The position numbers and the translations under genes are program-made. This document shows positions 49,226-64,000 of a stretch of DNA of 64,000 nt, one piece after another. Each line of letters opens with the position of its first letter. The first letter of the stretch is position 1. The notes below the pieces were generated by a model, which was given only the letters and a program-made list of their open reading frames with translations, was not told where the DNA came from and searched no databases. Source of the DNA: an archaeon (lineage in GTDB: Archaea > Micrarchaeota > Micrarchaeia > Norongarragalinales > UBA97); NCBI GenBank assembly GCA_020057405.1, contig JAGVFW010000013.1:23144-87143 (forward strand). The letters run 5' to 3'.

Positions 49226-49699
49226 CTAAGTCTCCCCACGTATTCGTTTTATTTTTTCCCACTTTTCAAAATTCAGTACTAAATCGGCTTCTTGGTCGCT
49301 AACAATCGTGCTAACCAAAACTTCTCGGATTTTGGGATTACGCACTAGTTTTGATATAGAAGCTGAAAGCGCTCGAGAAAACTTATCAGAACGCAATTTT
49401 GTAGTAAAATGCGCGGATATTGCTACTGGAACACCCGTCATAATCTCAATAAAGCCGCCTTTTTCGAAGAGAAACCGCTTGTAAAACTTTTCGCCAACGA
49501 TATCTTCACCAATGAAACAGGTTTTTTCTCCGAAGTTTCTCTCCAGTGACTTAACGAATTCAAACAAAGCACGATCAGTTTCAGATTCTGAATTTTGAGT
49601 CGCCAGCGCTACGAGATCCGCAGAGTCCGGCGTATCTGAACCAAAAGGTAGCGCTTCGGGAAGATCGATTAAAGTCACATACGAGTGTCTTAGTTTCAT
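49226..49699 (-). CDS. hypothetical protein (157 aa), co-oriented and contiguous with the V4R gene
   Basis: ORF only. AT-rich. Confidence 0.35.
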   Translation of the reverse strand: MKLRHSYVTLIDLPEALPFGSDTPDSADLVALATQNSESETDRALFEFVKSLERNFGEKTCFIGEDIVGEKFYKRFLFEKGGFIEIMTGVPVAISAHFTTKLRSDKFSRALSASISKLVRNPKIREVLVSTIVSDQEADLVLNFEKWEKIKRIRGET

Positions 49700-49872
49700 C
49701 CGGTACCTCCCACTAACACATTACGCATACTGTAACGCTATTTAAAAACACTAATCTACCCGCATCTCAAAAGACACAGCAGACTTAAAAAGAGACCTAG
49801 CCTACGGGTATATACGCTAAACGCAGGTAGAAGGAAAGAAACTAACCGATAGTAAAAAAACTGGGGTAGATT

Positions 49873-51171
49873 TTGTTGAAAAACTTGCAAGTTGGCATTG
49901 GCTTTTCGGAAGTAGCAGATTCAAAAAAGGCGGCTAAGGCGGCCTCTGAACAAGCGCTGAAAACACTTAAGAAAAAGCCAACAATCACCTACGTTTTCTT
50001 CGCAGGGGAATACGATCCTAAAGAAATAAGCAGGGGGTTAGTTGAAGCACTTGGCGATAGTGAATTTGTCGGGGGTTCCGGTGACGCGGTATTTTTTGAG
50101 GACAAGATATACCGGACCGGAATAGTGGTTGCGGCAATATACAGCGAATATCTCCACGTAGGAATCTCCTCAATCGAAGGAATATCAAAAGACCCCCACG
50201 GACTAGCTAGGAAAGTAACTGCAGAAGCAATGAAGAAAATTGCAATAGACAAGTATGTAGATCCATACTTACAGTTTACTAGAATGAGAAATAGCAGCAT
50301 AAAGTGGATGATTAAAAAACCATCATTCCACATTACAGTTTTTGCGAAAGGTATGAAATTGCCTCAGATGGGAGAAGAAACCAAAATATTACAAGGAATA
50401 ACTAGGGAAATGGGATTCAATGTTCCGATTTGGGGGGGCAGTTTCGGAGTACACCTCGAAAAGCTATTCGAACAAAAACCATACGACATTCACCTCTTAC
50501 ATTCAGGTAAAATACTCACAGACGGCTTAATCGTAGTAGTGAATTCAACAAGTCTACTCTACGGACTATCCTTAGCGCATGGTTCGCAACGGACAAACAA
50601 AATAGGCTTCATTTCTGGCGTTACGGGGGGCGGGTACGTGATAACGGGAATTTCCGGTAAAAACCCCATAGACTGGTATTGTGAAAACCTAAACATACCT
50701 CGAAAAGAGTTTTTAAAAAATTCCATAGTTATTACTCAGAAAAACCCATTAGGAATTCCTGACAACTATGGCGGATTTATTATTAGGGCGGGCGGAGTAC
50801 CCGCTGGAGAAAATCTAGCCTTTACTGCAACGTTCGAAGAAGGTTGGCCGGTATACATCATGGATTCGAGCATAAGCAATATGGCCACGGCACCGGGTAA
50901 AGTAATCGAAGACCTGCGTGCAAGTACCAACGAAGCAACTCCGGCTCTAGCTCTAGCAATCATCTGCGCATCATGCAGAATCGTCACAGGAGAAAAAGGC
51001 GTCGCCGGAGAACTCAAAGAATTAAAGAAAAAGCTCGGCGGGGCGCCAATCGTAGGTTTCTCGTCATTTACTGAAATTGGAGCTAAAGAGGGCGTACCCA
51101 CTACGGTACAGCACGAAGCTACAACCCTACTAACAATTTACGATAAATTGTTGCACGAAGTTAGGGATTGA
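49873..51171 (+). CDS. FIST-domain (FIST_N + FIST_C) putative small-ligand sensor protein
   Basis: N-terminal …PTITYVFFAGEYD… and C-terminal …PIVGFSSFTEIG… match the FIST N and C signatures. Confidence 0.6.
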   Translation: MLKNLQVGIGFSEVADSKKAAKAASEQALKTLKKKPTITYVFFAGEYDPKEISRGLVEALGDSEFVGGSGDAVFFEDKIYRTGIVVAAIYSEYLHVGISSIEGISKDPHGLARKVTAEAMKKIAIDKYVDPYLQFTRMRNSSIKWMIKKPSFHITVFAKGMKLPQMGEETKILQGITREMGFNVPIWGGSFGVHLEKLFEQKPYDIHLLHSGKILTDGLIVVVNSTSLLYGLSLAHGSQRTNKIGFISGVTGGGYVITGISGKNPIDWYCENLNIPRKEFLKNSIVITQKNPLGIPDNYGGFIIRAGGVPAGENLAFTATFEEGWPVYIMDSSISNMATAPGKVIEDLRASTNEATPALALAIICASCRIVTGEKGVAGELKELKKKLGGAPIVGFSSFTEIGAKEGVPTTVQHEATTLLTIYDKLLHEVRD

Positions 51172-51182
51172 GTTGAACCTGC

Positions 51183-52730
51183 GTGACACCTATTCGAAAC
51201 GCAACAATTTTAGTGCTGGGCGGAGCAGGACAAGTAGGCTTCGAATTTTGTTCACAAATCCTATCCAAAAATCCACTGAAGCTCATTATTTGCGATATAA
51301 ATGAGAAAAAAGTTAAGTCTGCCATTAGTAGATTAAATTCAAAAAGTCGTACGACCGCAAAAATCGGAGAATGGGGAGATATTTTTTCAGATAAACCGAC
51401 AGCGAAGTCTGCGCTCATTCAAATAAAAAGCAGCATTGTCGAACTGACGAACCGAACTGGCGTGCTGGCGGCTAGCGATGCCTCAGATACCTTCCTTTAC
51501 AAGCTGATATGCAAATACAAGCCCGACATCCTTGTTGATGCGGTCAATACAGCTACTGCACTGGCTTACAAAGATAGTCGCGAATCAAAAACGCGCGAAT
51601 CTACGCAACAAAACGACCTACCAGAACCGGTGCCGATTATGCAATTAATTCGACACACGCAAGTGTTGTTTCAGGCGTTCAGAAAAGCACAAACTAAGGA
51701 ATATATAAAAATAGGAACTGGCGGAACCGGCGGCCTTGGTTTCACTTTGCCATATACACACGGTGAAAATGAAGTTCCGTCAAAACTCCTAATGAGTAAA
51801 TCTGCCGTTGCAGGCGCGCAAACCATGCTTTTGTGGGTTTTGGCAAGAACTCCAATGATGCCAATAATAAAGGAAATTAAAGTTACGGCACTCATAGGAT
51901 GGAGAGAAATTGGGCGGGGTGAATTCACCATCGACTCCGAACCAATCGCACTCTATGATTGCCCAATTGAAAAGAGCCTAACTATCAGCGATGCGCTAAA
52001 AAAACACAATTCAATCAGATTAAATAAAAATCTACACGGGACGTGGATTGACACTGGAGAAAATGGAATATTTACTAAAGATATGTTCGCGGCTATTACT
52101 TCGAGAAACAACATGGAGCTAATTACTCCAGCAGAAATAGTCAAAATAATCATAGACGAAATTGAAGGCAAGCACACCGGGAAAGACACAATATCGGCCA
52201 TGGATAATGCAGTACTTGGCCCTACACTAATCGGAAGCGGAATGCGGCAAGTCGCTATAGATCGAATGAAGGATGACGACGAAGTTGTGGCAAGTATACC
52301 GACGCTAGGCCCCCTAACGGCAAAAATATTGTGGGAAGCCGCATTACTGAAAACCTCTTTCGAGAATATCGATCAAGTAATAAAAGAAAATGAAAAACAT
52401 ATATCGGAAAGGACTTTTGAAAAAATAAGCAGAGATCAAACGCTGAGAGCTAAAATAATATCCATAGGAATACCCATCCTCTTACCTTCTGGTAAGCTTC
52501 TTCGCGGTCCAACTATATCAATTCCAGATCAGAGTCGAGTATCCTCAAACCTGCGAGATGTCGAGACTTGGGCCGCCACTGGCTGGGTAGACCTTAGGCC
52601 TAAAAACTGGCTGCTTTGGAAAACCTGGCTCCGCGACTATCGCACATCTAATAACAATTCATTCAATATCGGCGAGATTTGCGGATGGATTTTTGCGCAT
52701 AAGCTTGGCGGAATGAGGATAAAACGGTGA
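51183..52730 (+). CDS. Rossmann-fold NAD(P)-binding oxidoreductase of uncertain family (515 aa)
   Basis: N-terminal ILVLGGAGQVGFEF…LIICDINEKK… (GxGxxG plus an acidic residue after β2) and …PDILVDAVN…. The remainder is unassigned. Confidence 0.5.
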   Translation: MTPIRNATILVLGGAGQVGFEFCSQILSKNPLKLIICDINEKKVKSAISRLNSKSRTTAKIGEWGDIFSDKPTAKSALIQIKSSIVELTNRTGVLAASDASDTFLYKLICKYKPDILVDAVNTATALAYKDSRESKTRESTQQNDLPEPVPIMQLIRHTQVLFQAFRKAQTKEYIKIGTGGTGGLGFTLPYTHGENEVPSKLLMSKSAVAGAQTMLLWVLARTPMMPIIKEIKVTALIGWREIGRGEFTIDSEPIALYDCPIEKSLTISDALKKHNSIRLNKNLHGTWIDTGENGIFTKDMFAAITSRNNMELITPAEIVKIIIDEIEGKHTGKDTISAMDNAVLGPTLIGSGMRQVAIDRMKDDDEVVASIPTLGPLTAKILWEAALLKTSFENIDQVIKENEKHISERTFEKISRDQTLRAKIISIGIPILLPSGKLLRGPTISIPDQSRVSSNLRDVETWAATGWVDLRPKNWLLWKTWLRDYRTSNNNSFNIGEICGWIFAHKLGGMRIKR

Positions 52731-53884
52731 TAACTAACTTCGAGGAGCTTTTAACAACATCCTCACGCACATTAGACCCGAAACAGATTTCACCAGCCGT
52801 ATGGGCTTCAAAAAATTGGGAAAAACTAGATAGGAAAAGTACTGAAACGACCCTTCTTCCGTTTATTAAGTTTCAAATTAATCGCGCTGGCAAAGCAATG
52901 CCAGATATTTACTCGCCATACACGAAAAAAAATACGCCAATAAACGAGTTTGAAGATTTTTTTAATTTACCTGCACTAGTAAAAGACACGGGAACCCACT
53001 CCATCGGATTTAGAGAAAAGGTCAAACTTAATCCGTATATACTATTACCAAAAGATACGAGTTCAGCTACGGTCGTCTATAAATCAGGCGGTACTCGGGG
53101 TACAGCCACTCCCACGTTTCTAACCACTTGGGATCACGAAGTTGAAGCGCTTTCCTTAAAAAAGTGCTTCGAGTATATGGGAATAAAGAAAGATGTGGTT
53201 GCGCTTAATTCTTACAATCCGACACATAAAGGCGGACAACTGATTACCAATGCACTCTTAGCTCTGGGCGTAAAAGTTATACCTAGGCGTACAACCGATA
53301 CGCCAACAGAAATGATTAACACGATAAAAACCTACGGCGTATCAATGTTAGCAACAGTACAAGGCCCACTTAGTGAAGATGATAATGTTCGAAAAGGCGC
53401 AGGGATAGATTTCCTATCACTTATTGAAGCGGGACAAGATGTACTCGAACAACACTTAGACTTGTTGTTCATTACCGGCTATTCGCTCATTCCGGAAGTT
53501 ATTGCTTGGTCAGAAAGTAATAAAAAAAACCTCGCTACGTGTTTAGGTTCTTCGGAAGCAATTCCCCAAGCAACTAGCACAGTAAAAGGTACAAAGTGCA
53601 AATACAACAACCTGCACCTGATTAACGGCCCCCACTACCTCGAAATCGTAAAGCTGGAATCTGGAACACTCGTTCCAGTAAAACGGGGAGAAACTGGCCT
53701 GCTACTATACACCACCATTGCAAGAGACGGTACGATATACATCCGATACGCTCCGGGTGACGCGGCAACACTAACGGCTTACGGTGGAGAATGCGACTGT
53801 GGAATACGTACACCCATCATTTCAAATATTCGAAGAATAGATATACCTGAAGATACTATTGCCGCCGGCTGTTGCATAGGGTAG
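52727..53884 (+). CDS. adenylate-forming acyl-protein synthetase-like enzyme (LuxE / PaaK / F390-synthetase superfamily)
   Basis: …VYKSGGTRGTATPTF… is P-loop-like [ST]SG[ST]xG. …YAPGDAATL… is present. The C-terminus ends …GCCIG, as with the LuxE acyl-Cys near its C-terminus. Confidence 0.5.
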   Translation: MITNFEELLTTSSRTLDPKQISPAVWASKNWEKLDRKSTETTLLPFIKFQINRAGKAMPDIYSPYTKKNTPINEFEDFFNLPALVKDTGTHSIGFREKVKLNPYILLPKDTSSATVVYKSGGTRGTATPTFLTTWDHEVEALSLKKCFEYMGIKKDVVALNSYNPTHKGGQLITNALLALGVKVIPRRTTDTPTEMINTIKTYGVSMLATVQGPLSEDDNVRKGAGIDFLSLIEAGQDVLEQHLDLLFITGYSLIPEVIAWSESNKKNLATCLGSSEAIPQATSTVKGTKCKYNNLHLINGPHYLEIVKLESGTLVPVKRGETGLLLYTTIARDGTIYIRYAPGDAATLTAYGGECDCGIRTPIISNIRRIDIPEDTIAAGCCIG

Positions 53885-55311
53885 AACAAATGACCCACCT
53901 AAAATTTAACAACTATATAGGCGGAAAGGAAGTTCTACTTTCAGGACAAACTTTTACAGTTGAAAGCAGCATATATCCCGACTATCAGTTTCTAGCTCCT
54001 GAAGCGGGACTATTTGATATTAAAACGGCAATTTCTAAGGCGCGTACATCTGTAAAAGACTGCCACGCACTTACCTTTAGCGAACGAATAGAAATACTTG
54101 AACGAGCGGCGGCTTCTTTTTCGCCAACTGCAACTGATTTCGAGTTCGCTGTCAAAACCACAGGCATGCCCATATCAAATGTTAGGTCTTTTTCAGAAGA
54201 TATTCGAAATATTTACCGCAATGTACCGATTGCTATAGAAAAGCACATAGGCCGGCTGGGCGACCGGTTCGGACATGACCTTAGACACTCAGAAGGCACC
54301 GTGCATTTTGAACCAATAAATGGAATAGTATATGCAATTACGCCAGGTAACGATATTCGCGTAACCGCATTCATTGCAAGTTGGCTAGTAGCCTTAGGAA
54401 TACCCGGAATATTTAAATGCTCAAAAAACGACCTCGCGTTTGCTAATAAAACTTTACAAAAGTTAGTCGAGGCGGGCTATCCGGAAGGCGGTCTTAACCT
54501 GCTTTGTTGGGATACACAAAAAAAGGAAAATGCTAAATTAAATTTCGAATTGGTAGATTCTTCGAAAGTTGTTTGGGCATATGGAGCCGATTCGACCGTT
54601 GATTTCATGCTTCGATTTGAAACAAAATCTGAAAACCAAGTTTTAGATCACTTTTCGGACAAAACCATACTAAGACATGCAACCGGAAGAACCGCAGCTA
54701 TATCCTCTCCGAAAACAGACATCGAAAAAGTATCTGAACGCGCGACTACCTCCGCTTTAACTTGGCCGATTGGTTGTAACTCGCTAAAAGCACTATTTAA
54801 CGCATCCAACAAAAACACCGAGGTTGTTAGCGCCCTAACGGAAAAGTTCGAGCAACTTGCTAAACATACCGGCGACCCCATGAAAAACACTACGAAGATA
54901 GGCTTCACGGAACCAAAACTACTAGCCCAGGTGTGGAACAGAATAAATGACCTCAAAAAAACCGGTCAGCTTAGCTTGCTTACTGGAGAAAAAATTAGTG
55001 AAAGACAATGCACGCCGCTACTCTTAGAAACTCTCGACCTTAATTCGGAATTCCTAAACACTGAATTTTCTACTTATCTACTAACTATCAAAAACTGCTC
55101 CGGGTTTAGTGAAGCGATAGATGAGGTCAATGTAACTTCAGGTGCGAATAGACGACTCGTAGTAACTGTTTTTTCTTCTGAAAATGAAAAACTCGGAAGA
55201 ATTCACGCGCACCGAATAAATATGAACACCATAACAACCGATCTCGACCTATTATTTCAAGAAGGAAACGACTACTTTAGCAAACTGACTACGCCCCAAC
55301 TTCATAAATGA
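53872..55311 (+). CDS. LuxC-like acyl-CoA/acyl-protein reductase (divergent ALDH superfamily)
   Basis: Segment-by-segment similarity to the LuxC pattern. AITPGNDIRVTAFIASWLVAL matches LLAGNVPLSGIMSILRAIL. GIFKCSKNDLAFAN matches CIIKTSSTDPFTAN. VVWAYGAD matches VIVAWGGPD. ERQC matches QRAC (catalytic Cys). Confidence 0.6.
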   Translation: MHRVEQMTHLKFNNYIGGKEVLLSGQTFTVESSIYPDYQFLAPEAGLFDIKTAISKARTSVKDCHALTFSERIEILERAAASFSPTATDFEFAVKTTGMPISNVRSFSEDIRNIYRNVPIAIEKHIGRLGDRFGHDLRHSEGTVHFEPINGIVYAITPGNDIRVTAFIASWLVALGIPGIFKCSKNDLAFANKTLQKLVEAGYPEGGLNLLCWDTQKKENAKLNFELVDSSKVVWAYGADSTVDFMLRFETKSENQVLDHFSDKTILRHATGRTAAISSPKTDIEKVSERATTSALTWPIGCNSLKALFNASNKNTEVVSALTEKFEQLAKHTGDPMKNTTKIGFTEPKLLAQVWNRINDLKKTGQLSLLTGEKISERQCTPLLLETLDLNSEFLNTEFSTYLLTIKNCSGFSEAIDEVNVTSGANRRLVVTVFSSENEKLGRIHAHRINMNTITTDLDLLFQEGNDYFSKLTTPQLHK

Positions 55312-55325
55312 ACGAATAGAACGCA

Positions 55326-56099
55326 TTAAAGCTTCAAAACGTCTTCATCGGAAACAAACTCGATTCCGCTCTTTGAAAATCTATACGATAACGCCTTCCG
55401 TTCATGATCAGTATACCTCATTTTTCTAACTTGCAAAGATCGAAATTCGGCAGTACCTATTCCAAAAAAACTCAGGAAAATTACACCATCGGCAAGAAAT
55501 TCTGAAATTCCGTCCGAACTCATACCTTTTCCTCGCTCTGGCAATTCTGAAGTGAGAAAAATTGTCGCACCCAACGCCCTTAGACTAGAAATAACCGTAG
55601 CTAACATTCGCTTAGTCATAGTTTTCTCCGAAGTACTCCTAGGTGGAATTTTATCTAAACTTCGTGAAGGCACCCCTCCGCGCTTAAGCAATACTTCCTT
55701 TGCAAAATCAGATACCAAGGCAAACTCAGAAAAAGTACTCATAGAGTCTAAAACCAGCCGTTGCGGAGAAAACTGACGAATCGCAGTGAAAATTTCGCTC
55801 AAAAAAGACTCGTCCTTTAATATATCTACATAAACTATTTTGAGCAAGTTTTTATCTACCCAAAGATTCAAATCCCACCCGTATTGGGCAGCTTGCTTAT
55901 TCAATTCTTCAAACGTCTGTTCGGTTGAAACGTACATACTTCGCTCATTATTTGCTATCCCCTGAAGTAAGAAATGCAAACATAAGGTACTCTTACCAGT
56001 TCCGGCCCCCCCCGAAATTAATACTACGTTCCCCTTAGGAATGCCCCCACTAATGGCCTCATCCAAGCCGATAATGCCAGTTTTAACTCTCTCAATCAT
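55326..56099 (-). CDS. KaiC-like RecA-superfamily ATPase (single domain), copy 2; ~35% identical to copy 1
   Basis: …GIIGLDEAISGGIPKGNVVLISGGAGTGKS… plus a Walker B-like VLDSMS. Confidence 0.75.
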   Translation of the reverse strand: MIERVKTGIIGLDEAISGGIPKGNVVLISGGAGTGKSTLCLHFLLQGIANNERSMYVSTEQTFEELNKQAAQYGWDLNLWVDKNLLKIVYVDILKDESFLSEIFTAIRQFSPQRLVLDSMSTFSEFALVSDFAKEVLLKRGGVPSRSLDKIPPRSTSEKTMTKRMLATVISSLRALGATIFLTSELPERGKGMSSDGISEFLADGVIFLSFFGIGTAEFRSLQVRKMRYTDHERKALSYRFSKSGIEFVSDEDVLKL

Positions 56100-56120
56100 C
56101 GAGATACTTAGGCTTGCCCA

Positions 56121-57011
56121 TTAAAAAAGCATATCGGATCGGGTAGCTTTACCCCGTTTGAATCCACCTTTAGTCGGGCCTACCTCAAACACGCATTTTT
56201 GGTCGCCTTTTGCTATGCACTTGGTTTCTTTTGCTTCGATTGCTGGGTCACCATACATTACGGCGAATCCTCCCGCTAGGCAGCCGCGCAGAAAATCGTC
56301 CACAGGCTCCTTGCTTTTTCCGAAACGATTAAGGTATTCGACTGCGAAGGGAGAATAATCTACTGTGACGAAAGCGGTTTTATTTGCCGTATCTATCTGC
56401 TCGATGTTTAGACTCCCCCAGCCGACTATTGAGAGCGTGTCAATGCCGTGCTGGAGTTCTACATCCAAGTCGCCACGGGTTACGCCCGTTCTACGCATTT
56501 CAGAATACCAACTGACGCTCATATCTCTTACCGTTTTGTAAAGAAGGCCGGGCTTCTTTTTGAGTTCAATGTGCCAAAGTAGGTACTGATACATCGGAAT
56601 CATGCAAATCTTGTGCCCAAATAAGTAAAGCTCATCCTTCGACAGGGTGAGATTTCCACTAAGCAAAAGATGTTTGAGCAGCGACAATGCCCTAAATGCA
56701 GAAAACATCCGGCCCTTGGCCGGAATGGCGAAAAAAGTTTTTGAATCGGAAGACGCCTGTATTGTCGAAATTTCTTGCGCCAAATTTCCCAACCAAACGC
56801 GATTAATAGAATAACCGGCATCATCTTTCACTAGCATTCCGGCGGCGGCCATTTCGCCGAGCGCCTTGTGTACGCCTTGGTAGGTAGCTTTGGTGCCTTC
56901 CTTTTGCACTGCCTTGAACGTTTCTTTTGCCGTTAGGGGCGCTTGCTCGGAGAGCGCGTTAAGCGTGGCGCCTTTCACACCGCCCAATGCAGAGCCTAGG
57001 ACTGAACTCAT
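56121..57011 (-). CDS. winged-helix plus V4R-domain putative ligand-responsive regulator (start moved to MSSVLGS…)
   Basis: The N-terminal wHTH (…PLTAKETFKAV…ATYQGVHKALGEM…GYSIN…) is shared with the three upstream paralogues. The C-terminus has …KCIAKGDQKCVFEV…, a V4R pattern. Confidence 0.55.
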   Translation of the reverse strand: MSSVLGSALGGVKGATLNALSEQAPLTAKETFKAVQKEGTKATYQGVHKALGEMAAAGMLVKDDAGYSINRVWLGNLAQEISTIQASSDSKTFFAIPAKGRMFSAFRALSLLKHLLLSGNLTLSKDELYLFGHKICMIPMYQYLLWHIELKKKPGLLYKTVRDMSVSWYSEMRRTGVTRGDLDVELQHGIDTLSIVGWGSLNIEQIDTANKTAFVTVDYSPFAVEYLNRFGKSKEPVDDFLRGCLAGGFAVMYGDPAIEAKETKCIAKGDQKCVFEVGPTKGGFKRGKATRSDMLF

Positions 57012-57835
57012 TTTCTCCCTCCGCACAGTGCAATCGTTTCTTTCTTTAGTTGGTCGGCGAGGGCTTGGTTGCGGATGACTGCAACTGGCACTCGCGCCTT
57101 TTTCATGAAAACCGCCTCGTAGAAGCTGTCGACATCGAAGTCGCTCATTTTGGAGGCGGAGTTGTAGACTTTGTCGAGTGCTTTCTTGAACTCGAGCGGG
57201 TAGTAGACGCGCACAACGAAGTCCTTGTAGACGACGGTATCCGTGCTCGTCGCTTCCTTCACGCCAATCCGGTGCTTCAGCTTGGAGTTCTTGCGCCAGT
57301 AGTCCGCGCACCAGCGGTCAAGCGGCGTGTCGGCAGGCGTTATCGAGTAGCTGTCGGACACGCTTACCAGCTCCTTCATGCGCAAGTAAGTCTCGCGGTT
57401 GAGGAACAGGGGAACCCAGAAGTGGCACCACTGCAGCGCCAGTACCTTGTCCTTTGGGTCAAAAACCTTCTGCGCGAAAGAGACAAGGAAATCGTCAACC
57501 TCGGCAACAGAATCAAAAAAAAGCACCGACTGGCCGGCGGGCATGCTTAAACCGGTCTTCGAATAGGAAGACTTGAGCTCGTCAGAAAACCGTGAGAGTC
57601 CATCAATCCAATCAAAGGAAAGAGAGTAACCCTCTGGAGAACGGGAAATCACGCCCTCCAAAGAAAGCTCGCCTAAAGACTTGTGGATTGCCTGATAAGT
57701 AAGGTGCGTTCCGTTCTTCGCAATTGCGGAATGGATTTGCTTGGCAGAGAGCGGCCACTTGGCAGAGAGAACACTGATAATCGCGCTTTTCGCGTCCGCT
57801 TTTCCTCGACTGCCTAGAGTAGGTAATTCAATCAT
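57008..57835 (-). CDS. winged-helix regulator-family paralogue 2, unknown C-terminal domain (start moved to MIELPTLG…)
   Basis: wHTH …PLSAKQIHSAIAKNGTHLTYQAIHKSLGEL…GYSLS…. C-terminal …DFVVRVYYPLEFKK…RVPVAVIRNQALADQL…. Confidence 0.5.
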   Translation of the reverse strand: MIELPTLGSRGKADAKSAIISVLSAKWPLSAKQIHSAIAKNGTHLTYQAIHKSLGELSLEGVISRSPEGYSLSFDWIDGLSRFSDELKSSYSKTGLSMPAGQSVLFFDSVAEVDDFLVSFAQKVFDPKDKVLALQWCHFWVPLFLNRETYLRMKELVSVSDSYSITPADTPLDRWCADYWRKNSKLKHRIGVKEATSTDTVVYKDFVVRVYYPLEFKKALDKVYNSASKMSDFDVDSFYEAVFMKKARVPVAVIRNQALADQLKKETIALCGGRK

Positions 57836-58683
57836 TTCCTTCCCCTCCTGAACTCGGCGAGCGTTTCGTCGATGATTTGTTTTGCCATTGCCTTGTTGCG
57901 GGTGATGACTACTGGGACTTTCATGCGGGCGCCGATTCCGACGAGCACGTAGTCGTAGACGACACGCATTACGCTGGCCGCTGACTGGGACGAGAAAGTC
58001 AGGTGCATGAACTTTTTGAATGCGGGGGGCCAGTAGATGTTGATTACGTAGTCGTTGAAGGCGAGCACGTCGCACGCTTCGGCAACGTCAACACCGGCAA
58101 GCCATTTGAGGGCTATTGGACCCTCCAAGTACTTCAGGCAGTAAATGTCCCCAGGTGAGTTGCCTCGGCAGAGAGCGTAATTGCCCTTGCTTTTCTTGAA
58201 TCTGGCCATTTTCTTGTATTGCTCCTCGCCAACCATTTGCGCCGCCCAAGCGAACCCGCAGTGCTGCACAATCACGCTCTTGCCTGCGGCGATTGGAGGC
58301 ATCTCATCAATGACCCAATAGGGGGCGGAGATTATGCCCGTAAAAGTGTAGGAAACCGAAGAGTTGGGAGGAATTTCCAAGAGACGAGGAGGCTCTCCGC
58401 CCGAATATCGCTTGCTAGCGTCATTCCACCAAGCTTTCTGCGCTTCGACCCACCCTGGCGAAAGCGAATATCCTTCCGGCAAGCGCGAGATAACGCCATC
58501 GGCCGACAACTCGCCCAAGACCTTGTGCACCGCTTGGTAAGTAAGTGGCTTGCCGCCGTCCTTTGAAACTACAGCGTGCAACTGCTTTGCAAACAAGGGC
58601 CATTTGACTGCTAGCGCGTTGATCACGCGCGAGCGGGCGTCATGCCTGCCGCTTGCGAGCAGTCCCGCGTTAAGTTCAGCCAC
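57832..58683 (-). CDS. winged-helix regulator-family paralogue 3
   Basis: Same wHTH (…PLFAKQLHAVVSKDGGKPLTYQAVHKVLGEL…) and the same C-terminal motifs (…DYVINIYWPPAFKK…KVPVVITRNKAMAKQI…). Confidence 0.5.
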   Translation of the reverse strand: MAELNAGLLASGRHDARSRVINALAVKWPLFAKQLHAVVSKDGGKPLTYQAVHKVLGELSADGVISRLPEGYSLSPGWVEAQKAWWNDASKRYSGGEPPRLLEIPPNSSVSYTFTGIISAPYWVIDEMPPIAAGKSVIVQHCGFAWAAQMVGEEQYKKMARFKKSKGNYALCRGNSPGDIYCLKYLEGPIALKWLAGVDVAEACDVLAFNDYVINIYWPPAFKKFMHLTFSSQSAASVMRVVYDYVLVGIGARMKVPVVITRNKAMAKQIIDETLAEFRRGRK

Positions 58684-59578
58684 TGCGCTTGCCTCCGGTT
58701 TTGAAGTGCGTTGCCAGCTTCCTTCTCATTTCTCTTGCAAGCGCGGCGTTTCGGGTGATGACTAGCTTGATTTTGAATTTCTTTTGGAAGCAAATCTTGT
58801 AGAGGGAATTGAGGTCCATGATTTTTTTTATCATGTTCTTACTGAACCACGCCATTACTTCGGGGGGCGTGTAAATCTGGACGATAAAATCGCCGAAAAC
58901 CACGGAGTCTACCTTGTTTGCAGGGTCGGTGCCCATAACGTAGGGCGTGCCGAAACCACGCTTCCAAAACTCTAGAGTGAACCTATCGAGAAAGAAGTTC
59001 GTCGTGCACACGAGCCTTGTGCGGGCCGAGGAAGTAAGCTGCCTGATTTCATCATACTCTTTCTTGCTAACAATAAAGACCGGCCAGGCGCCGTACATCA
59101 CGATGAAAACATCGCCCTCGACCCTGTGCTTGAGAGTATACTCCGCCATCTCGGAAAGAACCCAGTAAAAGGGCGCGGCCAGACTCTCGTTAAACTCCAC
59201 AGTTGTGCTGGAATCAGGCGCAATGTCGGCAAACGAAATGCGGTCAGGCGAGACGTGACGCACTTCCGCCTCCTGCAAAAACTTCTTAGAACGCGAAATC
59301 CAGTCAAGAGACAAACGATAATTGCTAGAAAAATTGCGCTCAAGCACGCCCTCAGAAGCAAGGCGCCGAACCACCTTGTGGACGGCCTGGTAAGTCAACT
59401 GCTTGCCGCCGTCAGATAAAAGAAGCGAGTGAACATGCTTTGCGGACAACGGGGACTTTCTAGCCAGTGCCGAGATTACACGCGAGCGGGCGTCACGGCG
59501 CCCCGACGCTAGGACACTTTCCGAAAGCCCCCGATCTAAGTTGCCAACCAAACCCCAAACCACCACTCCGCAGGACAC
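58676..59578 (-). CDS. winged-helix regulator-family paralogue 4
   Basis: …PLSAKHVHSLLLSDGGKQLTYQAVHKVVRRL…, …DFIVQIYTPPEV…, …KLVITRNAALAREM…. Confidence 0.5.
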   Translation of the reverse strand: MSCGVVVWGLVGNLDRGLSESVLASGRRDARSRVISALARKSPLSAKHVHSLLLSDGGKQLTYQAVHKVVRRLASEGVLERNFSSNYRLSLDWISRSKKFLQEAEVRHVSPDRISFADIAPDSSTTVEFNESLAAPFYWVLSEMAEYTLKHRVEGDVFIVMYGAWPVFIVSKKEYDEIRQLTSSARTRLVCTTNFFLDRFTLEFWKRGFGTPYVMGTDPANKVDSVVFGDFIVQIYTPPEVMAWFSKNMIKKIMDLNSLYKICFQKKFKIKLVITRNAALAREMRRKLATHFKTGGKRSG

Positions 59579-59620: not shown

Positions 59621-59697
59621 GCTATAAACTTTTAGTTGATTGCAGTTCTACCGCACCTCTTTATTCGGGCACAAACACAATAATTTCGACAAAGAAG
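59621..59697 (+). promoter_or_regulatory. conserved upstream motif, copy 1 (AACTTTTAGTTGATTG-CA-GTTCTACC plus a ~30 nt extension)
   Basis: Shares a ~30-nt block with 61668-61699, and a ~75-nt block with 63238-63306. Confidence 0.5.
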
Positions 59698-59710
59698 GCG
59701 GTGAGCAAAT

Positions 59711-60592
59711 ATGATAGAAAATAATCGTGAGCGGATTCTTCTTCGGCTCTTGCTGACGCCGGTTCCTCTCCTTGCACTCGTGACGACCGCACTCTTGCTG
59801 GCGGCTGGAACCGCACATGCGGACGGTAACTTCACGCTCATACAATTCAACACTACGAACATAACCGCCATAAACGCGACGCGGTTGCTGCCGGATTTGA
59901 TTACTGGATTGTCTGCAGACCGGACGGAACTCTATGTAGGCGAGAGCTTCACCGTAACCGAGCGCACGCTCAACATCGGCCGCGGACGCGCGAAGGCGTC
60001 GTCAACCGCATCCCACATGGTGTTCAGGGGGAATGGCTATGGCAACGGCGGCTCGGCGTATGTTCCAAAACCAGTTTTGCGGCCGGGGCAATACGCCGAC
60101 TACAACGGAACATTCTACTGCGGCGACGTTGGCAACTACACCTTCAGCGCGCAAGCGGACTACTTCAACAACGTCACCGAGTCCAACGAGACCAACAACA
60201 ACGCGTGGGCGGCCGTCAACGTGACCTGCACTGCGCCACAAGGGTCGGACCTAGTCACGCGGTTCGACAAGGCAACAATAGGAAATTACACATACTACCC
60301 CAGCAACGGCAGGATTTTCATTCCGTTCAACACCAACGTTACTTTTTATGAAACGACTTCGAACATAGGGGGAGCTTTTGCCTCACCTTCCACCACCGTA
60401 ATCGGAACTGTCTCCGGTAGGCATTACCTAGCCAAACCGAGCATCGCCCCCAACTCGTCAATTCAGTCAACATTTACGTACAAGTGCAGATGGGACGAAA
60501 CAATTAACGTCACTGCAGATTACTTTGGCGAAGTGAGCGAAAGCAATGAATCGAACAATTTCGTCGAGCTATACGTCGGTTGCGTGTGGTAG
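59711..60592 (+). CDS. secreted protein with two CARDB-like (Ig-like) repeats
   Basis: Signal peptide. Repeated …SFTVTERTLNIGRGRAKAS… and …YETTSNIGGAFASP… segments, each ending …NN.V…V.C…. Confidence 0.5.
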   Translation: MIENNRERILLRLLLTPVPLLALVTTALLLAAGTAHADGNFTLIQFNTTNITAINATRLLPDLITGLSADRTELYVGESFTVTERTLNIGRGRAKASSTASHMVFRGNGYGNGGSAYVPKPVLRPGQYADYNGTFYCGDVGNYTFSAQADYFNNVTESNETNNNAWAAVNVTCTAPQGSDLVTRFDKATIGNYTYYPSNGRIFIPFNTNVTFYETTSNIGGAFASPSTTVIGTVSGRHYLAKPSIAPNSSIQSTFTYKCRWDETINVTADYFGEVSESNESNNFVELYVGCVW

Positions 60593-60803
60593 ACGAAAAC
60601 GCATTGACGCGGAATCCACACGAGAAGCTGGTACTGAAAGCAATGCGGCGGTTGTTGACCCGGTCACCGGCGCGGACATTGCAAGCGGCACCGTAAGCCC
60701 GAGAGGAAGCGCACTTGAAATCAGGTCGCACTCCCAGTTGGCAATAAGGTACGCAAGCGAACTGGCAAGCGCGAAGTTCTCCTTTGACAAGATGAATTAA
60801 GCG

Positions 60804-61664
60804 ATGGGGCAGGTGGTTGGAATGGGTTTGCTTGGAAAACTTTTGGGCGGAGAAAAGCCTATGCCCAAGAAGAGCGGGGGGCACGGCAGCCACTGGCAAA
60901 CGCTTTTCCCCCAGTTGGACGACGTGTTTGTAAAAGCGCTCGTGGCCGGAGCGGAGTCAAGTAAGGTAGAATTAAGCCGCAAGGGCACGTTTGCAGGAAT
61001 GCGGGACACTACGCTGGCGTACGCGGTGTTTGGAGAGAAACTTGCGTTCGTTTACGCGCTTTTCTTAAAAGAAGTCGAACGCGATGGAAAGAAGCTGAAA
61101 GGCCTGATTGTTGACGAACCGTTCACCGCATACCCCGCTTACTTTGCCGCAAAGCCACATAACGGCACGATCAAGGCGGTTGAGGAATGGGCAAACGGGA
61201 CCGAAGCGCAGGTGCAAGTCAAGCTCGACGCTGGACCTGCTTTGTGGTTTTTCGCGACCGACTACTTGGAGAAGAAGGAAAAGTACGCAGTTGGAAGCAA
61301 GGCGGCACCCAAACTCGCGGGTTTTGCATATCGGCTGAACAAATTAGGCGACGAAAAACGCGAAGTCACGCTTCCTGACGGGAGCAAGGCGTCAATGGAC
61401 AACTTCGCGGGCATTATCCCCATGCAGATGACGCACAAGGCTGGCGATGTCGACGATTATGCCGTGTGGGCGAAGGTAGAGCGGCTTTCGCAAGAGAAAA
61501 CGCCAGTTAGCGCGAAAGTCGTCGAGGCGATTGTGGCGTACGGAGGCGAAAACCACAAGACAGCCATATCGATTCCCATCGTGACCACGGAAAAAACACT
61601 TCCCGATGCAGTCAAGCCCGGCGAGAAAATCACGGGAACGATTTGGTTAACTGGATCGCTTTGA
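60804..61664 (+). CDS. hypothetical protein (286 aa)
   Basis: ORF only. Confidence 0.35.
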   Translation: MGQVVGMGLLGKLLGGEKPMPKKSGGHGSHWQTLFPQLDDVFVKALVAGAESSKVELSRKGTFAGMRDTTLAYAVFGEKLAFVYALFLKEVERDGKKLKGLIVDEPFTAYPAYFAAKPHNGTIKAVEEWANGTEAQVQVKLDAGPALWFFATDYLEKKEKYAVGSKAAPKLAGFAYRLNKLGDEKREVTLPDGSKASMDNFAGIIPMQMTHKAGDVDDYAVWAKVERLSQEKTPVSAKVVEAIVAYGGENHKTAISIPIVTTEKTLPDAVKPGEKITGTIWLTGSL

Positions 61665-61667
61665 GAC

Positions 61668-61699
61668 AATCAACTTTTAGTTGATTGTGGTTCTACCCA
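61668..61699 (+). promoter_or_regulatory. conserved upstream motif, copy 2 (perfect CAATCAAC-TTTTA-GTTGATTG palindrome, then TG-GTTCTACC)
   Basis: 8-bp inverted repeat with a 5-nt spacer, ~45 nt upstream of the radical-SAM GTG start. Confidence 0.5.
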
Positions 61700-61732
61700 A
61701 CAAATAAGATTCTGCAAAAATAAAACAAGTTA

Positions 61733-62635
61733 GTGAACATCGAAGTTGTTGATTGGAAGATTATTGGAACCTGCAATTTGCGTTGTTTGCACTGCTACGG
61801 CCCGCCCAAAACGGATACGGCCCTCCCATTAGAGAAATTACTAGCAATCATCGACAAGTTCAAACTTCTTAAAATAAAATGGGTGGTGCTAACTGGAGGT
61901 GAACCCTTGCTCGTACAGAATATAGAAACAGTATTCCGTCACTTAAATCAGCACAACATCAAAATCGCTTTATCGACTAACACCACCTACTTCAGAAAAT
62001 TTCAACCATCCATTGAAAAGTACGTTTCGTCACTGAATATTCCGATTGACGGTTCCACACCAGAAATTCACGCTAAATCACGTAAAGACACGGCGTCATA
62101 TCATTCAGCAGCCGATGTCCTTAAGTTCTACCTTGAAAATCCGGAAAATAAACCCGAACTACTTCGAGTGGGGACTGTTTTCTCGAAAGCTAACCAAGGA
62201 GATTTCATCAACATTGCAAGGCTGCTTGAACCCTACGAATCAATCATAAGCACGTGGAAGATCTACGAATTAATGAACTCCGACACGCACCTTGATCTCA
62301 GAGCGCCGATTCTCCACGAACACGCTAATTTTGAACTGGAAATGGAGGAACTACACTCTACGGGCTTGCTTTCATCGAAAATATTGGTTTCCCGCGCTAG
62401 CTCGAGAAATAAGGCCTACTTTATGCTTAATCCCCAAGGGCAAGTCGTAGTTCCGACAAACCTAGATGGCATCTCCACGGACATGCCTGCCGGAGACTTC
62501 TTATGGACTCCAACGGACAAGTTGTTGGCACGCTGGCAAACAATGGTTTCCACAGAAAACTATAACTCAAACCACACTCGCCACTATGGCAAGATTAAGC
62601 TAACTCCGATTATGCTTGAGATGAAAGCGCGATGA
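61733..62635 (+). CDS. radical SAM protein (GTG start)
   Basis: CNLRCLHCY (C-x3-C-x2-C) and VVLTGGEPLL SAM-binding motif. No SPASM extension. AT-rich. Confidence 0.75.
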   Translation: MNIEVVDWKIIGTCNLRCLHCYGPPKTDTALPLEKLLAIIDKFKLLKIKWVVLTGGEPLLVQNIETVFRHLNQHNIKIALSTNTTYFRKFQPSIEKYVSSLNIPIDGSTPEIHAKSRKDTASYHSAADVLKFYLENPENKPELLRVGTVFSKANQGDFINIARLLEPYESIISTWKIYELMNSDTHLDLRAPILHEHANFELEMEELHSTGLLSSKILVSRASSRNKAYFMLNPQGQVVVPTNLDGISTDMPAGDFLWTPTDKLLARWQTMVSTENYNSNHTRHYGKIKLTPIMLEMKAR

Positions 62636-63201
62636 CTGGGGAACTGATGGACGTAGTCAACCACGCAAATGCCGTTATTGGAAGCGCGACAGTAAGCGAA
62701 GTGTATGAGCGTAAATTATCGCACCGGATAGTACATGTTTTTGTCCTCAACCAAAATGGCGAAGTATACCTGCAACAGCGGGCCCTAACTGACTCATTTC
62801 TTCCAGGGTACTGGTGCACCTCTGCAGGAGGGCACGTAAGAAAAGGAGAATCGTACGAAGATGCAGCGCGCAGAGAACTTGAAGAAGAGCTTGGCCTCAA
62901 AGATGCACCACTCGCCCCGCTAGGCAGCACTTTTCAATTCCAGCCCGACGAACACCAACGCCACCTGCAAGTCTTTGTCGCGTTCTCACCAAAAAGTCCG
63001 GCCCCAAACAAAGCCGAGGTGCATAAGGGTAAATTTTTTGACCTAGGGGAAGCGATACGAAAAGTCAAGTCAAACAAGCAAATTCATCCTCAACTTCAGC
63101 CCTGCTTGGCTCTGCTTTATGAAAACAGGGAAAGGCTTAAGGAAAGTCTGATCTTCTCTCCGAAAACCGAGCGGGAGCTATCGGCGAAATCCTCAAAATA
63201 G
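62632..63201 (+). CDS. NUDIX hydrolase (IDI/YfcD-like)
   Basis: Nudix box GGHVRKGESYEDAARRELEEELGL. ATGA overlap with the radical-SAM gene. Confidence 0.7.
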   Translation: MTGELMDVVNHANAVIGSATVSEVYERKLSHRIVHVFVLNQNGEVYLQQRALTDSFLPGYWCTSAGGHVRKGESYEDAARRELEEELGLKDAPLAPLGSTFQFQPDEHQRHLQVFVAFSPKSPAPNKAEVHKGKFFDLGEAIRKVKSNKQIHPQLQPCLALLYENRERLKESLIFSPKTERELSAKSSK

Positions 63202-63237
63202 GTTAGTTTTCAGATTGTCGAAATCCCGACATTCCAC

Positions 63238-63306
63238 CAATCAACTTTTAGTTGATTTCAATTCTACCGAGCTAATTTATTCCGGCACTTCCACAATAAT
63301 TTCGAC
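63238..63306 (+). promoter_or_regulatory. conserved upstream motif, copy 3 (CAATCAAC-TTTTA-GTTGATTT, then CA-ATTCTACC and a TTTATTCCGGCAC…CACAATAATTTCGACA extension)
   Basis: Aligns over ~75 nt with copy 1. Confidence 0.5.
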
Positions 63307-63500
63307 ATGGATGCGCGGGCCAACAAAGTAAAAACACGGGGGCGCTTATTTTCATTAAGGCGTTCACTGCGGCCAGCGCCAAAATCTCCTCTTCTTAAGT
63401 TCGAGCGGGAACCGGCAGCGGAAGGGTTGCCTACCAAAAGCGGATTGCCTCAAAGCGTATCCGCGCCGGTTGCCCGACTTAAAGGGGACAACGGGAGCAC

Positions 63501-64000
63501 ATGCTGAAAACGCCTAGGAATATCATAATCGAGGGCGTGGAATGCGCAGGCAAGACCACGCTAATAGACGCGCTTAGCCGTGAATGCCGCGGGTGGGACA
63601 TCAAGTACCTGCCGCACAAGGACGGCAACCAATTCAAGAGATACGTGCACGAGTACCTCACCAACGAAAAGACGATTTTCAACCGCTCGCACTTAAGCGA
63701 AGTCGTGTGCGGGAGTTTGTGGAGAGGCGGACCTGGAATGAGTGAAGAGGAAACGAGTACCCTAAACAAGCTAGTTGGAGAAGAATTCGTCGTGGTGCTT
63801 GTTGACGCCGACCCCGAAGTGATTAAACAGCGCTTTAGGGAAAGAGGCTATGTCGAGGGGGCTAAAATTGACGAAGTGGAAGCCGTCCAAAAGGGATTCA
63901 AAAACGCATTTGAAAACGTGACGCACATAACTTGCGTGTCAAACGACGAGGACGACTTGAAACGAAATGTCGGGACTATAGCGAAGTTCATGAGGGGGAT
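63501..64000 (+). CDS. thymidylate-kinase-like P-loop kinase; 3' end lies outside the window
   Basis: IIIEGVECAGKTT resembles the Tmk P-loop (EGxDGxGKxT). The frame is open to the window end. Confidence 0.5.
   Translation, partial: MLKTPRNIIIEGVECAGKTTLIDALSRECRGWDIKYLPHKDGNQFKRYVHEYLTNEKTIFNRSHLSEVVCGSLWRGGPGMSEEETSTLNKLVGEEFVVVLVDADPEVIKQRFRERGYVEGAKIDEVEAVQKGFKNAFENVTHITCVSNDEDDLKRNVGTIAKFMRG

What the first reader, a model, noticed from the sequence alone, without database searches (positions are those of the whole stretch)
59621..63306. Three copies of a conserved palindrome-containing motif upstream of co-oriented genes
AACTTTTAGTTGATTG-NN-(G/A)TTCTACC occurs at 59621, 61668 and 63238. 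Each copy is 45-85 nt upstream of a plus-strand gene: the CARDB-like secreted protein, the radical-SAM/Nudix operon, and the Tmk-like kinase. Copies 2 and 3 contain the palindrome CAATCAAC-TTTTA-GTTGATT(G/T). Copies 1 and 3 share a further ~30 nt (TTTATTC(G/C)GGCAC…CACAATAATTTCGACA). This is either a shared operator/promoter of a small regulon or a short repeat family such as a MITE-like element. Copy 1 lies in the divergent region next to the first gene of the wHTH array, so these could be the cognate regulators.
Basis: seen in the sequence. Interest (0 to 1): 0.6.

Follow-up and report, generated by a model that had tools for sequence, protein, structure and literature searches.

The report
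Shared operator of an archaeal regulon
Three neighbouring promoters in an uncultured DPANN-type archaeon carry the same 29-base element just upstream of their TATA boxes. This is most likely the docking site for a cluster of uncharacterised TrmB-like regulators encoded next door, so it is a new example of an ordinary kind of gene switch.

Summary
AT(A/C)AAC-TTTTA-GTTGATT-N4-TTCTACC occurs three times, at 59624-59652, 61669-61697 and 63240-63268, all on the + strand, against zero expected by chance.

It is not a MITE, a terminator or a structured RNA. The window is archaeal. In this genome TATA boxes sit about 26-32 nt before start codons, so the real TATA of each promoter lies exactly 7 nt downstream of TTCTACC. 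The palindrome is therefore centred about 30 nt upstream of the TATA start, next to the BRE position.

The same element, with the same spacing to a TATA, recurs in other Micrarchaeota-type contigs. Every site that could be checked against gene calls is intergenic. The element repeatedly lies beside genes of one winged-helix protein family, which forms the window's four-gene array. This holds whether loci were found through the DNA motif or through the protein.

An AlphaFold model of one array member matches TrmBL2 over its full length. The palindrome has the 6-N5-6 layout of the TrmBL1 operator.

Best reading: an operator of a small local regulon, with autoregulation of the divergent regulator operon. 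The regulon covers a CARDB surface protein, a viperin-like radical-SAM/Nudix operon and a kinase. Whether the regulator activates or represses is not resolved. This is a new member of a known kind and is moderately interesting.

The parts
59624..59652 (+). Site 1: ATAAAC-TTTTA-GTTGATT-GCAG-TTCTACC. It lies in the divergent region between the regulator operon and the CARDB gene.
59622..59629 (-). Inferred TATA (GTTTATAG on the minus strand) of the divergent regulator operon. It overlaps the left arm of the site 1 palindrome. The flank GTTTATAGCCGG.CGTCACCACTATC.AGTTGGCAATCC is conserved in L072 and L080.
   Evidence: The same layout in L087 has TTTATA 33 nt before the ATG of the first wHTH gene.
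59660..59691 (+). Promoter 1 core: TATA TTTATT (59660-59665) plus the conserved block up to the predicted transcription start (CACAATAATTTCGACA). A Shine-Dalgarno-like GGCGGTGA follows at 59697-59704 and the ATG at 59711.
61669..61697 (+). Site 2: ATCAAC-TTTTA-GTTGATT-GTGG-TTCTACC. It starts 5 nt after the stop codon of gene 60804-61664.
61702..61710 (+). Promoter 2 TATA-like box (AAATAAGAT), about 30 nt before the GTG start at 61733. This spacing fits a leaderless mRNA.
63240..63268 (+). Site 3: ATCAAC-TTTTA-GTTGATT-TCAA-TTCTACC, 38 nt after the Nudix stop codon.
63276..63307 (+). Promoter 3 core: TATA TTTATT (63276-63281) plus the same conserved block as promoter 1. The block ends at the A of the ATG at 63307, so TATA start to ATG is 31 nt (leaderless spacing).
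58676..59551 (-). R1, first gene of the wHTH array. The TTG start at 59551 is inferred from alignment with paralogs; the longest ORF starts at GTG 59578.
57832..58683 (-). R2, a wHTH regulator. Its AlphaFold model matches TrmBL2 over the full length.
57008..57835 (-). R3, a wHTH regulator paralog. It overlaps R2 by 4 nt.
56121..57011 (-). R4, with the same wHTH domain fused to a V4R sensor domain. It overlaps R3 by 4 nt.
55326..56099 (-). KaiC-like ATPase, the last gene of the array. The same neighbour occurs in L081 and L078.
59711..60592 (+). Target 1: a secreted CARDB-domain protein.
61733..63201 (+). Target 2: an operon of a viperin-like radical SAM gene (61733-62635) and a Nudix hydrolase gene (62632-63201).
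63307..64000 (+). Target 3: a 66-codon ORF (63307-63507) overlapping the start of a P-loop dTMP-kinase/VakA-like kinase (63501 onward, cut by the window end).

Best explanation
The 29-bp element is a cis-regulatory operator shared by three adjacent promoters. Its core is an inverted repeat, AT(A/C)AAC-N5-GTTGAT, suited to a dimeric winged-helix protein. A third box, TTCTACC, follows one helical turn later and abuts the BRE.

The most likely binding proteins are those encoded by the neighbouring operon of four paralogous TrmB-like regulators (R1-R4). They share one recognition helix, (T/S)YQ(A/G)VHK, but carry different sensor domains.

On the + strand the site lies immediately upstream of BRE/TATA. 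In archaea this is the position from which TrmBL1, TFB-RF1 and Ptr2 activate transcription by helping TFB or TBP to load. At site 1 the same palindrome overlaps the TATA of the divergent regulator operon, so binding there would also autoregulate the regulators, probably by repression.

Shown here: the sequence element, its invariant geometry relative to TATA, its conservation in other genomes, its co-occurrence with the protein family, and the fold of the protein.

Inferred: that these proteins bind it, and the sign of regulation.
For: 1. The element is non-random and local. There are 3 hits against 0 expected, all within 3.7 kb beside the array, and none elsewhere in 64 kb.

2. The organism is archaeal (an intron-bearing tRNA). 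In 22 of 34 genes with an intergenic upstream region, the best A/T-rich heptamer starts between -40 and -26. The positional A+T peak is at -30 to -25. By that rule the functional TATA of each motif promoter is the box 7 nt after TTCTACC. Start codons then follow 28-31 nt after the TATA start in w2, w3, three L070 promoters and L071.

3. Eighteen full sites from the window and 12 other contigs keep the same layout, [palindrome]-T-N4-[(T/A)TCTAC(C/T)]-N7-[TATA], with no length variation. The N4, the N7 and the flanks differ between sites. L082, found through the protein and not the motif, carries a 29/29 match plus TTTATT.

4. Every site in loci with called genes is intergenic (combined).

5. 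Co-occurrence with the protein family. Five of 11 loci found by the motif alone have a family member within the held DNA, adjacent in four and with an array about 1.3 kb away in L070 (window, L003, L005, L070, L072). L070 has 6 sites in 14 kb beside a 3-4 gene array. Among 8 loci found by the protein alone, L080, L082 and L087 carry the palindrome. L088, a distant low-GC lineage, has two copies of a variant, ATCAAC-CAAAAA-GTTGA, one of them 58 nt upstream of its wHTH array. The background rate of the arms-only pattern in the window is 1 extra hit in 64 kb.

6. Core-only palindromes lie directly upstream of wHTH genes, with the left arm doubling as a TATA. L087 has ATCAAC-CAAAA-GTTTATA ending 26 nt before the ATG. 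L005 has ATCAAC-GAACA-GTTGAT. L072 and L080 have one each, and L070 has one at position 156.

7. The R2 model (pLDDT 83) has a wHTH, a long helix and an alpha/beta domain. The best PDB matches are eight TrmBL2 chains, E from 3.6e-8 to 1.2e-5 over about 290 columns. CggR follows, and PLD/Nuc folds match the C-terminal domain.

8. TrmBL1 binds TATCAC-N5-GTGATA. It activates when the site is upstream of BRE/TATA and represses when it is downstream (PMC4706686).

9. The recognition-helix motif is present in 128 of 158 family members retrieved.
Against: - No binding, footprint or transcription-start data exist.
- Pfam TrmB models do not hit the proteins, and profile searches of PDB sequences find no TrmB chain. 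The TrmB link therefore rests on one Foldseek result with low TM-scores (0.33-0.37).
- Some arrays lack the site: L081, from the same MAG as L003, and L086.
- Six motif-bearing contigs show no family gene, although most of them are short.
- Most relatives were found with a pattern that fixes 20 of the 29 positions, so apparent invariance at those positions is partly due to ascertainment.
- Several loci are orthologous or come from the same metagenome, so they are not independent.
- The core promoters look strong (TTTATT), which fits repression as well as activation.
Confidence: 0.6

Rival explanations
1. The element is a conserved composite core promoter with no dedicated regulator. The palindrome would itself be a symmetric BRE-TATA-BRE (CAAC-TTTTA-GTTG) that loads TBP/TFB in either direction. 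This would give a bidirectional or tandem promoter, copied between genes by duplication.
For: The generic BRE-like sequence in this genome is (A/C)AAC just upstream of the TATA, and ATCAAC-TTTTAG resembles that. In ATAAAC variants the opposite strand reads GTTTATA, a plausible TATA for the divergent gene. Copies 1 and 3 share 82% identity over 68 nt, which indicates promoter duplication.
Against: - Eighteen nucleotides are identical across genomes whose regulators are only 44-59% identical. That is far more conservation than ordinary BRE/TATA boxes show in the same window.
- A separate TATA at a fixed 7 nt after TTCTACC is positioned correctly for the start codons, whereas the central TTTTA is about 30 nt too far upstream.
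- This reading does not explain why the element tracks one protein family.
Confidence: 0.15
2. The element is an operator, but for a different transcription factor than the adjacent wHTH array. In that case the proximity only reflects a shared accessory or defence island.
For: L081 and L086 arrays lack the site. L067 and L069 have sites with no family gene within 2-5 kb, and L069 has an unrelated wHTH ORF nearby. In L070 another HTH-containing nucleotidyltransferase gene lies between the array and one of the sites.
Against: Sites lie at the promoters of the family's own genes in the window, L003, L005, L070, L072/L080 and L087, and a co-varying N6 variant does so in L088. No other protein family recurs next to the sites.
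Confidence: 0.12
3. The element is a short mobile repeat (MITE-like) that happens to land in intergenic DNA.
For: There are multiple copies per locus. L070 has three near-identical repeats of 100-170 nt that include the site. A 9-bp inverted repeat brackets promoter 3 (63216-63224 and 63299-63307).
Against: - No terminal inverted repeats or target-site duplications are shared by the copies.
- Copy 2 shares only 29 nt with the others.
- Orientation relative to the downstream gene and spacing to the TATA are invariant.
- The window has only three copies.
- Orthologous promoters in different genomes keep the element (w1 and L061; L069, L072 and L080).
- About 24 nine-bp inverted pairs within 100 nt are expected by chance in 64 kb, by my own estimate.
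Confidence: 0.03
4. The element acts at the RNA level, as a terminator hairpin for the upstream genes or as part of a small RNA or leader.
For: Copies 2 and 3 can form an 8-10 bp hairpin and lie 5 nt and 38 nt after stop codons.
Against: - Copy 1 cannot form the hairpin and follows no co-oriented gene.
- No T-run follows the stem, and the terminator scan finds nothing at the sites.
- Folding z-scores are -0.1 to -0.5.
- Rfam has no hit even at E<=1.
- The left arm varies (ATAAAC, GTAAAC) without compensating changes in the right arm.
Confidence: 0.03

Closest known systems
TrmBL1 (Tgr) and the Thermococcales Glycolytic Motif (TGM), TATCAC-N5-GTGATA, in Pyrococcus and Thermococcus
   Same: Both have a dimeric wHTH regulator with a long helix and a C-terminal sensor domain. 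Both operators are 6-N5-6 inverted repeats with similar half-sites (ATCAC versus ATCAAC). In both, sites lie close to BRE/TATA, and for TrmBL1 the position decides between activation (upstream) and repression (downstream) (PMC4706686; fold match to the paralog TrmBL2).
   Different: There is no detectable sequence similarity to Pfam TrmB models. The half-site sequence differs. An extra TTCTACC box sits at a fixed distance. The targets are surface, Nudix and viperin-like genes rather than sugar metabolism genes. The regulators come as an operon of four paralogs plus a KaiC-like ATPase. The lineage is DPANN, not Thermococcales.
TFB-RF1 (PF1088) of Pyrococcus furiosus and Ptr2 of Methanocaldococcus jannaschii, both archaeal activators
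   Same: Their binding sites lie directly upstream of BRE/TATA, from where TFB or TBP is recruited (cited in PMC4706686; PMC5937170 listed).
   Different: They belong to different protein families. Their target promoters have weak BRE or TATA boxes, whereas the promoters here have good TTTATT boxes. Activation is not shown here.
TrmB at the trehalose/maltose (TM) promoter, and other autoregulated archaeal repressors
   Same: The operator overlaps BRE/TATA and blocks TBP/TFB by steric hindrance (PMC4706686). This is the arrangement inferred for the divergent regulator promoter at site 1, L087, L072/L080 and L070.
   Different: Here one and the same palindrome would serve two divergent promoters in different registers.

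Membership tests
TrmB-family transcription regulators | N-terminal HTH matching Pfam PF01978 (TrmB) and/or C-terminal PF11495 | tested here: not met
   Pfam scans of R1-R4 and 11 relatives, up to E=1, give no TrmB model. Only V4R, FIST and weak Penicillinase_R or HTH_12 hits appear.
TrmB-family transcription regulators | Overall fold: wHTH, then a long dimerisation helix, then an alpha/beta effector domain | tested here: met
   The AF2 model of R2 (pLDDT 83.2) has this order of elements. The eight best Foldseek PDB hits are TrmBL2 chains (5bpd, 5bpi, 5bqt, 5box), E from 3.6e-8 to 1.2e-5, 275-294 aligned columns, but TM only 0.30-0.37.
TrmB-family transcription regulators | Binds a palindromic operator of 6-N5-6 type near BRE/TATA | tested here: inconclusive
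   A palindrome of that layout co-occurs with the genes. Binding itself cannot be tested with these tools.
MITE or short mobile repeat | Terminal inverted repeats and target-site duplication shared by the copies, with similarity along the whole unit | tested here: not met
   Copy 2 shares only the 29-nt element (66% identity over 68 nt). No common ends are present.
MITE or short mobile repeat | Many dispersed copies, in both orientations, regardless of gene structure | tested here: not met
   There are three copies in 64 kb, all on the + strand. Related sites are all intergenic, with fixed orientation and spacing to a TATA.
Archaeal core promoter (BRE/TATA) | A/T-rich box about 25-32 nt upstream of the transcription start or leaderless start codon | tested here: met
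   This is met by the downstream box (59660, 61702, 63276), which is 28-33 nt from start codons where the mRNA looks leaderless. It is not met on the + strand by the central TTTTA of the palindrome, which lies about 30 nt further upstream.
Intrinsic terminator or structured RNA | Stable hairpin followed by a T-run, or significant conserved secondary structure, or an Rfam match | tested here: not met
   The terminator scan finds nothing at the sites. Folding z-scores are -0.13 to -0.52. Rfam finds nothing at E<=1. The left arm varies without compensation.
Upstream activating sites of archaeal activators (TrmBL1 upstream TGM, TFB-RF1, Ptr2) | Site immediately upstream of BRE/TATA, with transcription stimulated by the bound factor | tested here: inconclusive
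   The position criterion is met: the palindrome centre is 30 nt upstream of the TATA start and TTCTACC ends 7 nt before it. Stimulation cannot be tested here.

The most novel reading that the evidence does not exclude
A large, unannotated family of TrmB-like one-component regulators in DPANN archaea uses one conserved recognition helix and one operator. The family has about 1,900 clusters at 50% identity and no Pfam model.

Operons of paralogs with different sensor domains (PLD-like, V4R, FIST), together with a KaiC-like ATPase, would then integrate several signals on a single site. That site would switch on an accessory island of cell-surface and antiviral genes, including a viperin-like radical-SAM/Nudix/kinase module. 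This would be an example of signal-controlled transcription of a viperin-type defence system in archaea.
Probability: 0.2. Interest if true: 0.65.

Novelty: new member of a known kind. Interest (0 to 1): 0.42.

Why it matters
Almost nothing is known about transcription control in DPANN archaea, which cannot be grown alone. This finding gives a precise and testable operator-regulator pair: a 29-bp site with fixed promoter geometry, and four candidate binding proteins. It also gives a first functional handle on a protein family of roughly 1,900 clusters that is annotated only as "hypothetical". The predicted targets are surface proteins, Nudix hydrolases and a viperin-like operon, and in relatives T4SS-like genes and genes set among toxin-antitoxin modules. 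These are the kinds of genes expected to matter for host contact and virus defence. The regulon may therefore show when such functions are switched on.

Tried and rejected
- Viral origin. A scan of IMG/VR with the 17-nt palindrome gave 55 hits, none with TTCTACC or a related flank. Most were coding matches in AT-rich phages.
- Unrelated pattern hits. Hits L001, L002, L004, L062-L065, L068, L073, L074, L076 and L077 are AT-rich bacterial or eukaryote-like DNA without the left arm or the promoter layout. They were discarded.
- Structured RNA or terminator. Rejected.
- Replication origin (ORB) or att site. Considered and dropped, because all copies point the same way, each sits at a fixed distance from a TATA and a gene start, and no AT-rich unwinding region lies between inverted copies.
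- Source contig beyond the window. It could not be fetched. Exact-protein look-ups of P0001, the Nudix protein and P0008 all failed, so a genome-wide count in the source organism was not possible.
- Word-index protein searches. These found only 6 relatives, which understated the family. The full HMMER scan corrected this.
- Distant family members. L083-L086 do not carry the strict palindrome, so the exact element is confined to a subclade.


Full report
**Observation**

These are 59627-59652, 61672-61697 and 63243-63268, all on the + strand. No hits occurred in 100 dinucleotide-preserving shuffles. The 21-nt palindrome is perfect in copy 2 and has one mismatch in copy 3. In copy 1 the left arm is CTATAAAC. 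The second block shared by copies 1 and 3 is at 59660-59691 and 63276-63307. The repeat finder groups the three copies as one 68-nt family, with 82% identity (copy 3) and 66% identity (copy 2) to copy 1. The observation therefore stands. The only errors are small coordinate offsets and the gene assignment for copy 3, which is directly followed by a 66-codon ORF (63307-63507). The kinase gene begins at 63501 and overlaps that ORF's stop.

**Where the element sits in the promoter**

The window is archaeal. It contains a tRNA with an intron at 36710-36856, and the only genome hits to the motif are Micrarchaeota MAGs. I listed the upstream regions of the window's genes and tRNAs. In 22 of 34 genes with an intergenic upstream region, the best A/T-rich heptamer starts between -40 and -26. 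Positional A+T content peaks at -30 to -25. TATA boxes (TTTATT, TTTTAA and similar) thus lie about 26-32 nt before start codons, so most mRNAs are leaderless or have short leaders.

By the same rule, the TATA of each motif promoter is the box that starts exactly 7 nt after TTCTACC:
- TTTATT at 59660.
- AAATAAGAT at 61702.
- TTTATT at 63276, which is 31 nt before the ATG at 63307.

The generic BRE-like (A/C)AAC seen at other promoters in the window occupies the 7-nt gap. The specific element, AT(A/C)AAC-TTTTA-GTTGATT-N4-TTCTACC, therefore lies directly upstream of BRE/TATA. Its dyad centre is 30 nt upstream of the TATA start.

**Conservation elsewhere**

A genome scan found the element in two Micrarchaeota MAGs, L003 and L005. 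Both also carry the left arm AATCAAC, which was not part of the search pattern. A metagenome scan added L061, L066, L067, L069, L070, L071, L072 and L075. Mismatch-tolerant scans and loci fetched through the protein added sites in L070 (six in 14 kb), L080, L082, L087 and L088.

Laid side by side, 18 full sites keep the same arrangement with no length variation: palindrome, T, N4, (T/A)TCTAC(C/T), N7, TATA-like hexamer. The N4, the N7, the TATA sequence and all flanks differ between sites. L082 was found only through a protein homolog, yet it has a 29/29 match followed by AAACAAA-TTTATT. This shows that the conservation is not just a product of the search pattern. Every site in loci with gene calls is intergenic.

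Downstream genes include:
- CARDB or other secreted proteins (window, L003, L061, L069, L072).
- Nudix hydrolases (window operon, L070).
- Small zinc-ribbon proteins (L005, L071).
- Small ORFs (L070).
- A 57-codon ORF followed by T4SS-like genes (L082).

**Link to the winged-helix proteins**

The four minus-strand genes next to site 1 (R1-R4, 56121-59551) overlap by 4-8 nt and are followed by a KaiC-like ATPase. All share an N-terminal domain with the motif PLSAK..H...(T/S)YQ(A/G)VHK.

An HMM of that domain finds a member within the held DNA in 5 of the 11 loci ascertained by DNA pattern alone: the window, L003, L005, L070 and L072. It is adjacent to the site in four of them, and in L070 the array lies about 1.3 kb away. 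Going the other way, among loci fetched through protein homologs:
- L080, L082 and L087 carry the palindrome.
- L088, a low-GC "Diapherotrites" MAG, carries two copies of a variant with a 6-nt spacer. One of them is 58 nt upstream of its own wHTH array.
- L078 has only a degenerate site.
- L081 and L086 have none, and L083-L085 have only a weak ATAAAC-N5-GTTTAT match.

In the window the arms-only pattern, with at most 1 mismatch, has one background hit in 64 kb. The association is therefore far above chance, although several loci are orthologous or come from one metagenome.

Core-only palindromes, lacking TTCTACC and the + strand TATA, lie directly upstream of wHTH genes. Read on the gene's strand, their left arm is GTTTAT(A), which is a TATA box. 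In L087 it ends 26 nt before the ATG of the first array gene. In the window, L072 and L080, the flank GTTTATAGCCGG.CGTCACCACTATC.AGTTGGCAATCC is conserved. This points to autoregulation of the regulator operon from the same palindrome.

**What the proteins are**

Pfam, NCBIfam and PADLOC give no family for R1-R3. A full HMMER scan shows that the family is large: 1,872 representative clusters at E<=1e-3, and 280 at E<=1e-30. Most members are 270-290 residues long. Sampled members lack Pfam regulator domains and are named "hypothetical protein" where named at all. The recognition-helix motif is present in 128 of 158 retrieved sequences.

An AlphaFold model of R2 (mean pLDDT 83) shows a winged helix, with YQAVHKVLGELSA as its third helix followed by a beta-hairpin wing. 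A long helix and an alpha/beta domain follow. The eight best Foldseek hits in the PDB are TrmBL2 chains aligned over about 290 columns, with E down to 3.6e-8. CggR comes next, and PLD/Nuc folds match the C-terminal domain. TM-scores are low (0.30-0.37), as expected if the domain orientation differs. R4 carries a V4R domain instead, and the L003 member carries FIST domains.

**Mechanism**

TrmBL1 of Pyrococcus binds TATCAC-N5-GTGATA. It activates when the site is upstream of BRE/TATA and represses when it is downstream. TrmB represses by overlapping BRE/TATA (PMC4706686). The element here has the same 6-N5-6 layout, a similar half-site and a TrmB-like candidate protein.

I therefore propose that a dimer of one or more of R1-R4 binds the palindrome. 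The TTCTACC box, one helical turn further on, would be either a third contact or an extended BRE. On the + strand the complex touches TFB at the BRE. At site 1 it also covers the TATA of the divergent regulator operon. Position favours activation of the + strand promoters and autorepression of the regulators. However, the good TTTATT boxes are equally compatible with repression by blocking TFB, so I leave the sign open.

**Rivals**

- A purely basal symmetric BRE-TATA-BRE promoter is possible, but it does not explain the extreme conservation, the second correctly placed TATA, or the link to one protein family.
- A different, unlinked regulator cannot be excluded.
- The MITE, terminator and small-RNA readings fail their defining tests.

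**Verdict**

This is a real, conserved cis-regulatory element of a small local regulon, most likely the operator of the adjacent TrmB-like regulators. It is a new member of a well-known kind of system, in a lineage and protein family where nothing has been characterised.

Noticed in passing
window 61733-64000: The radical SAM protein hits the PADLOC pVip models (E 1.5e-21 and 3.1e-20, nearly the full profile). Its best NCBIfam hit is viperin_w_prok (63.8 bits, below the cutoff of 180). It is followed by a Nudix hydrolase, a 66-codon ORF and a P-loop kinase that weakly hits VakA and dTMP kinase. Together these look like a divergent viperin-type antiviral module.
   Followed up: partly
window 55326-59551 (minus strand); L081 907-6011; L078 7603-10936: The gene order is conserved: three wHTH paralogs, a wHTH-V4R fusion, a KaiC-like ATPase and, in L081 and L078, a stand-alone V4R protein. 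In the window the reading frames overlap by 4-8 nt, which suggests one operon.
   Followed up: partly
window 48500-56000: GC content drops to 0.40-0.44 here, against 0.52-0.57 in the flanks. The stretch encodes stand-alone V4R (48689-49225) and FIST (49873-51171) proteins, an SDR-like protein and an aldehyde dehydrogenase. FIST and V4R are the sensor domains found fused to the same wHTH domain in L003 and R4. This may be an acquired island.
   Followed up: partly
window 36710-36856 (minus strand): A tRNA gene 147 nt long matches Rfam tRNA but is missed by ARAGORN. It is presumably intron-bearing, which marks the window as archaeal.
   Followed up: no
L070 2991-3160, 9579-9650, 13239-13410: Three near-identical repeats contain the site, a TATA box and the sequence ATGGACTTTTTTGGCGGCGGGCGCC. 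Two of them stay alike for about 100 nt further. The reading frame is not conserved in the third copy, so this may be a small RNA rather than a small protein. It remains unexplained.
   Followed up: partly
L082 1797-8413: A perfect full site precedes a 57-codon ORF and an operon with a TrbC/T4SS pilin, a TraC-like protein and a VirB4/DUF87-type ATPase. PIN/MazE toxin-antitoxin pairs lie beyond it. The element may therefore also control a conjugation-like or DNA-transfer apparatus.
   Followed up: no
L070/L079 3167-9433: In this 14-kb contig the six sites are interspersed with two HEPN/nucleotidyltransferase pairs, an AbiEii-family gene, two Nudix genes and an exo/endonuclease-phosphatase gene. 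This is a defence-island-like context.
   Followed up: no
window 63216-63224 and 63299-63307: A 9-bp inverted repeat, TGTCGAAAT / ATTTCGACA, brackets promoter 3. By my estimate about two dozen such pairs are expected by chance in 64 kb, and the repeat is absent from the other copies, so it was not pursued.
   Followed up: no
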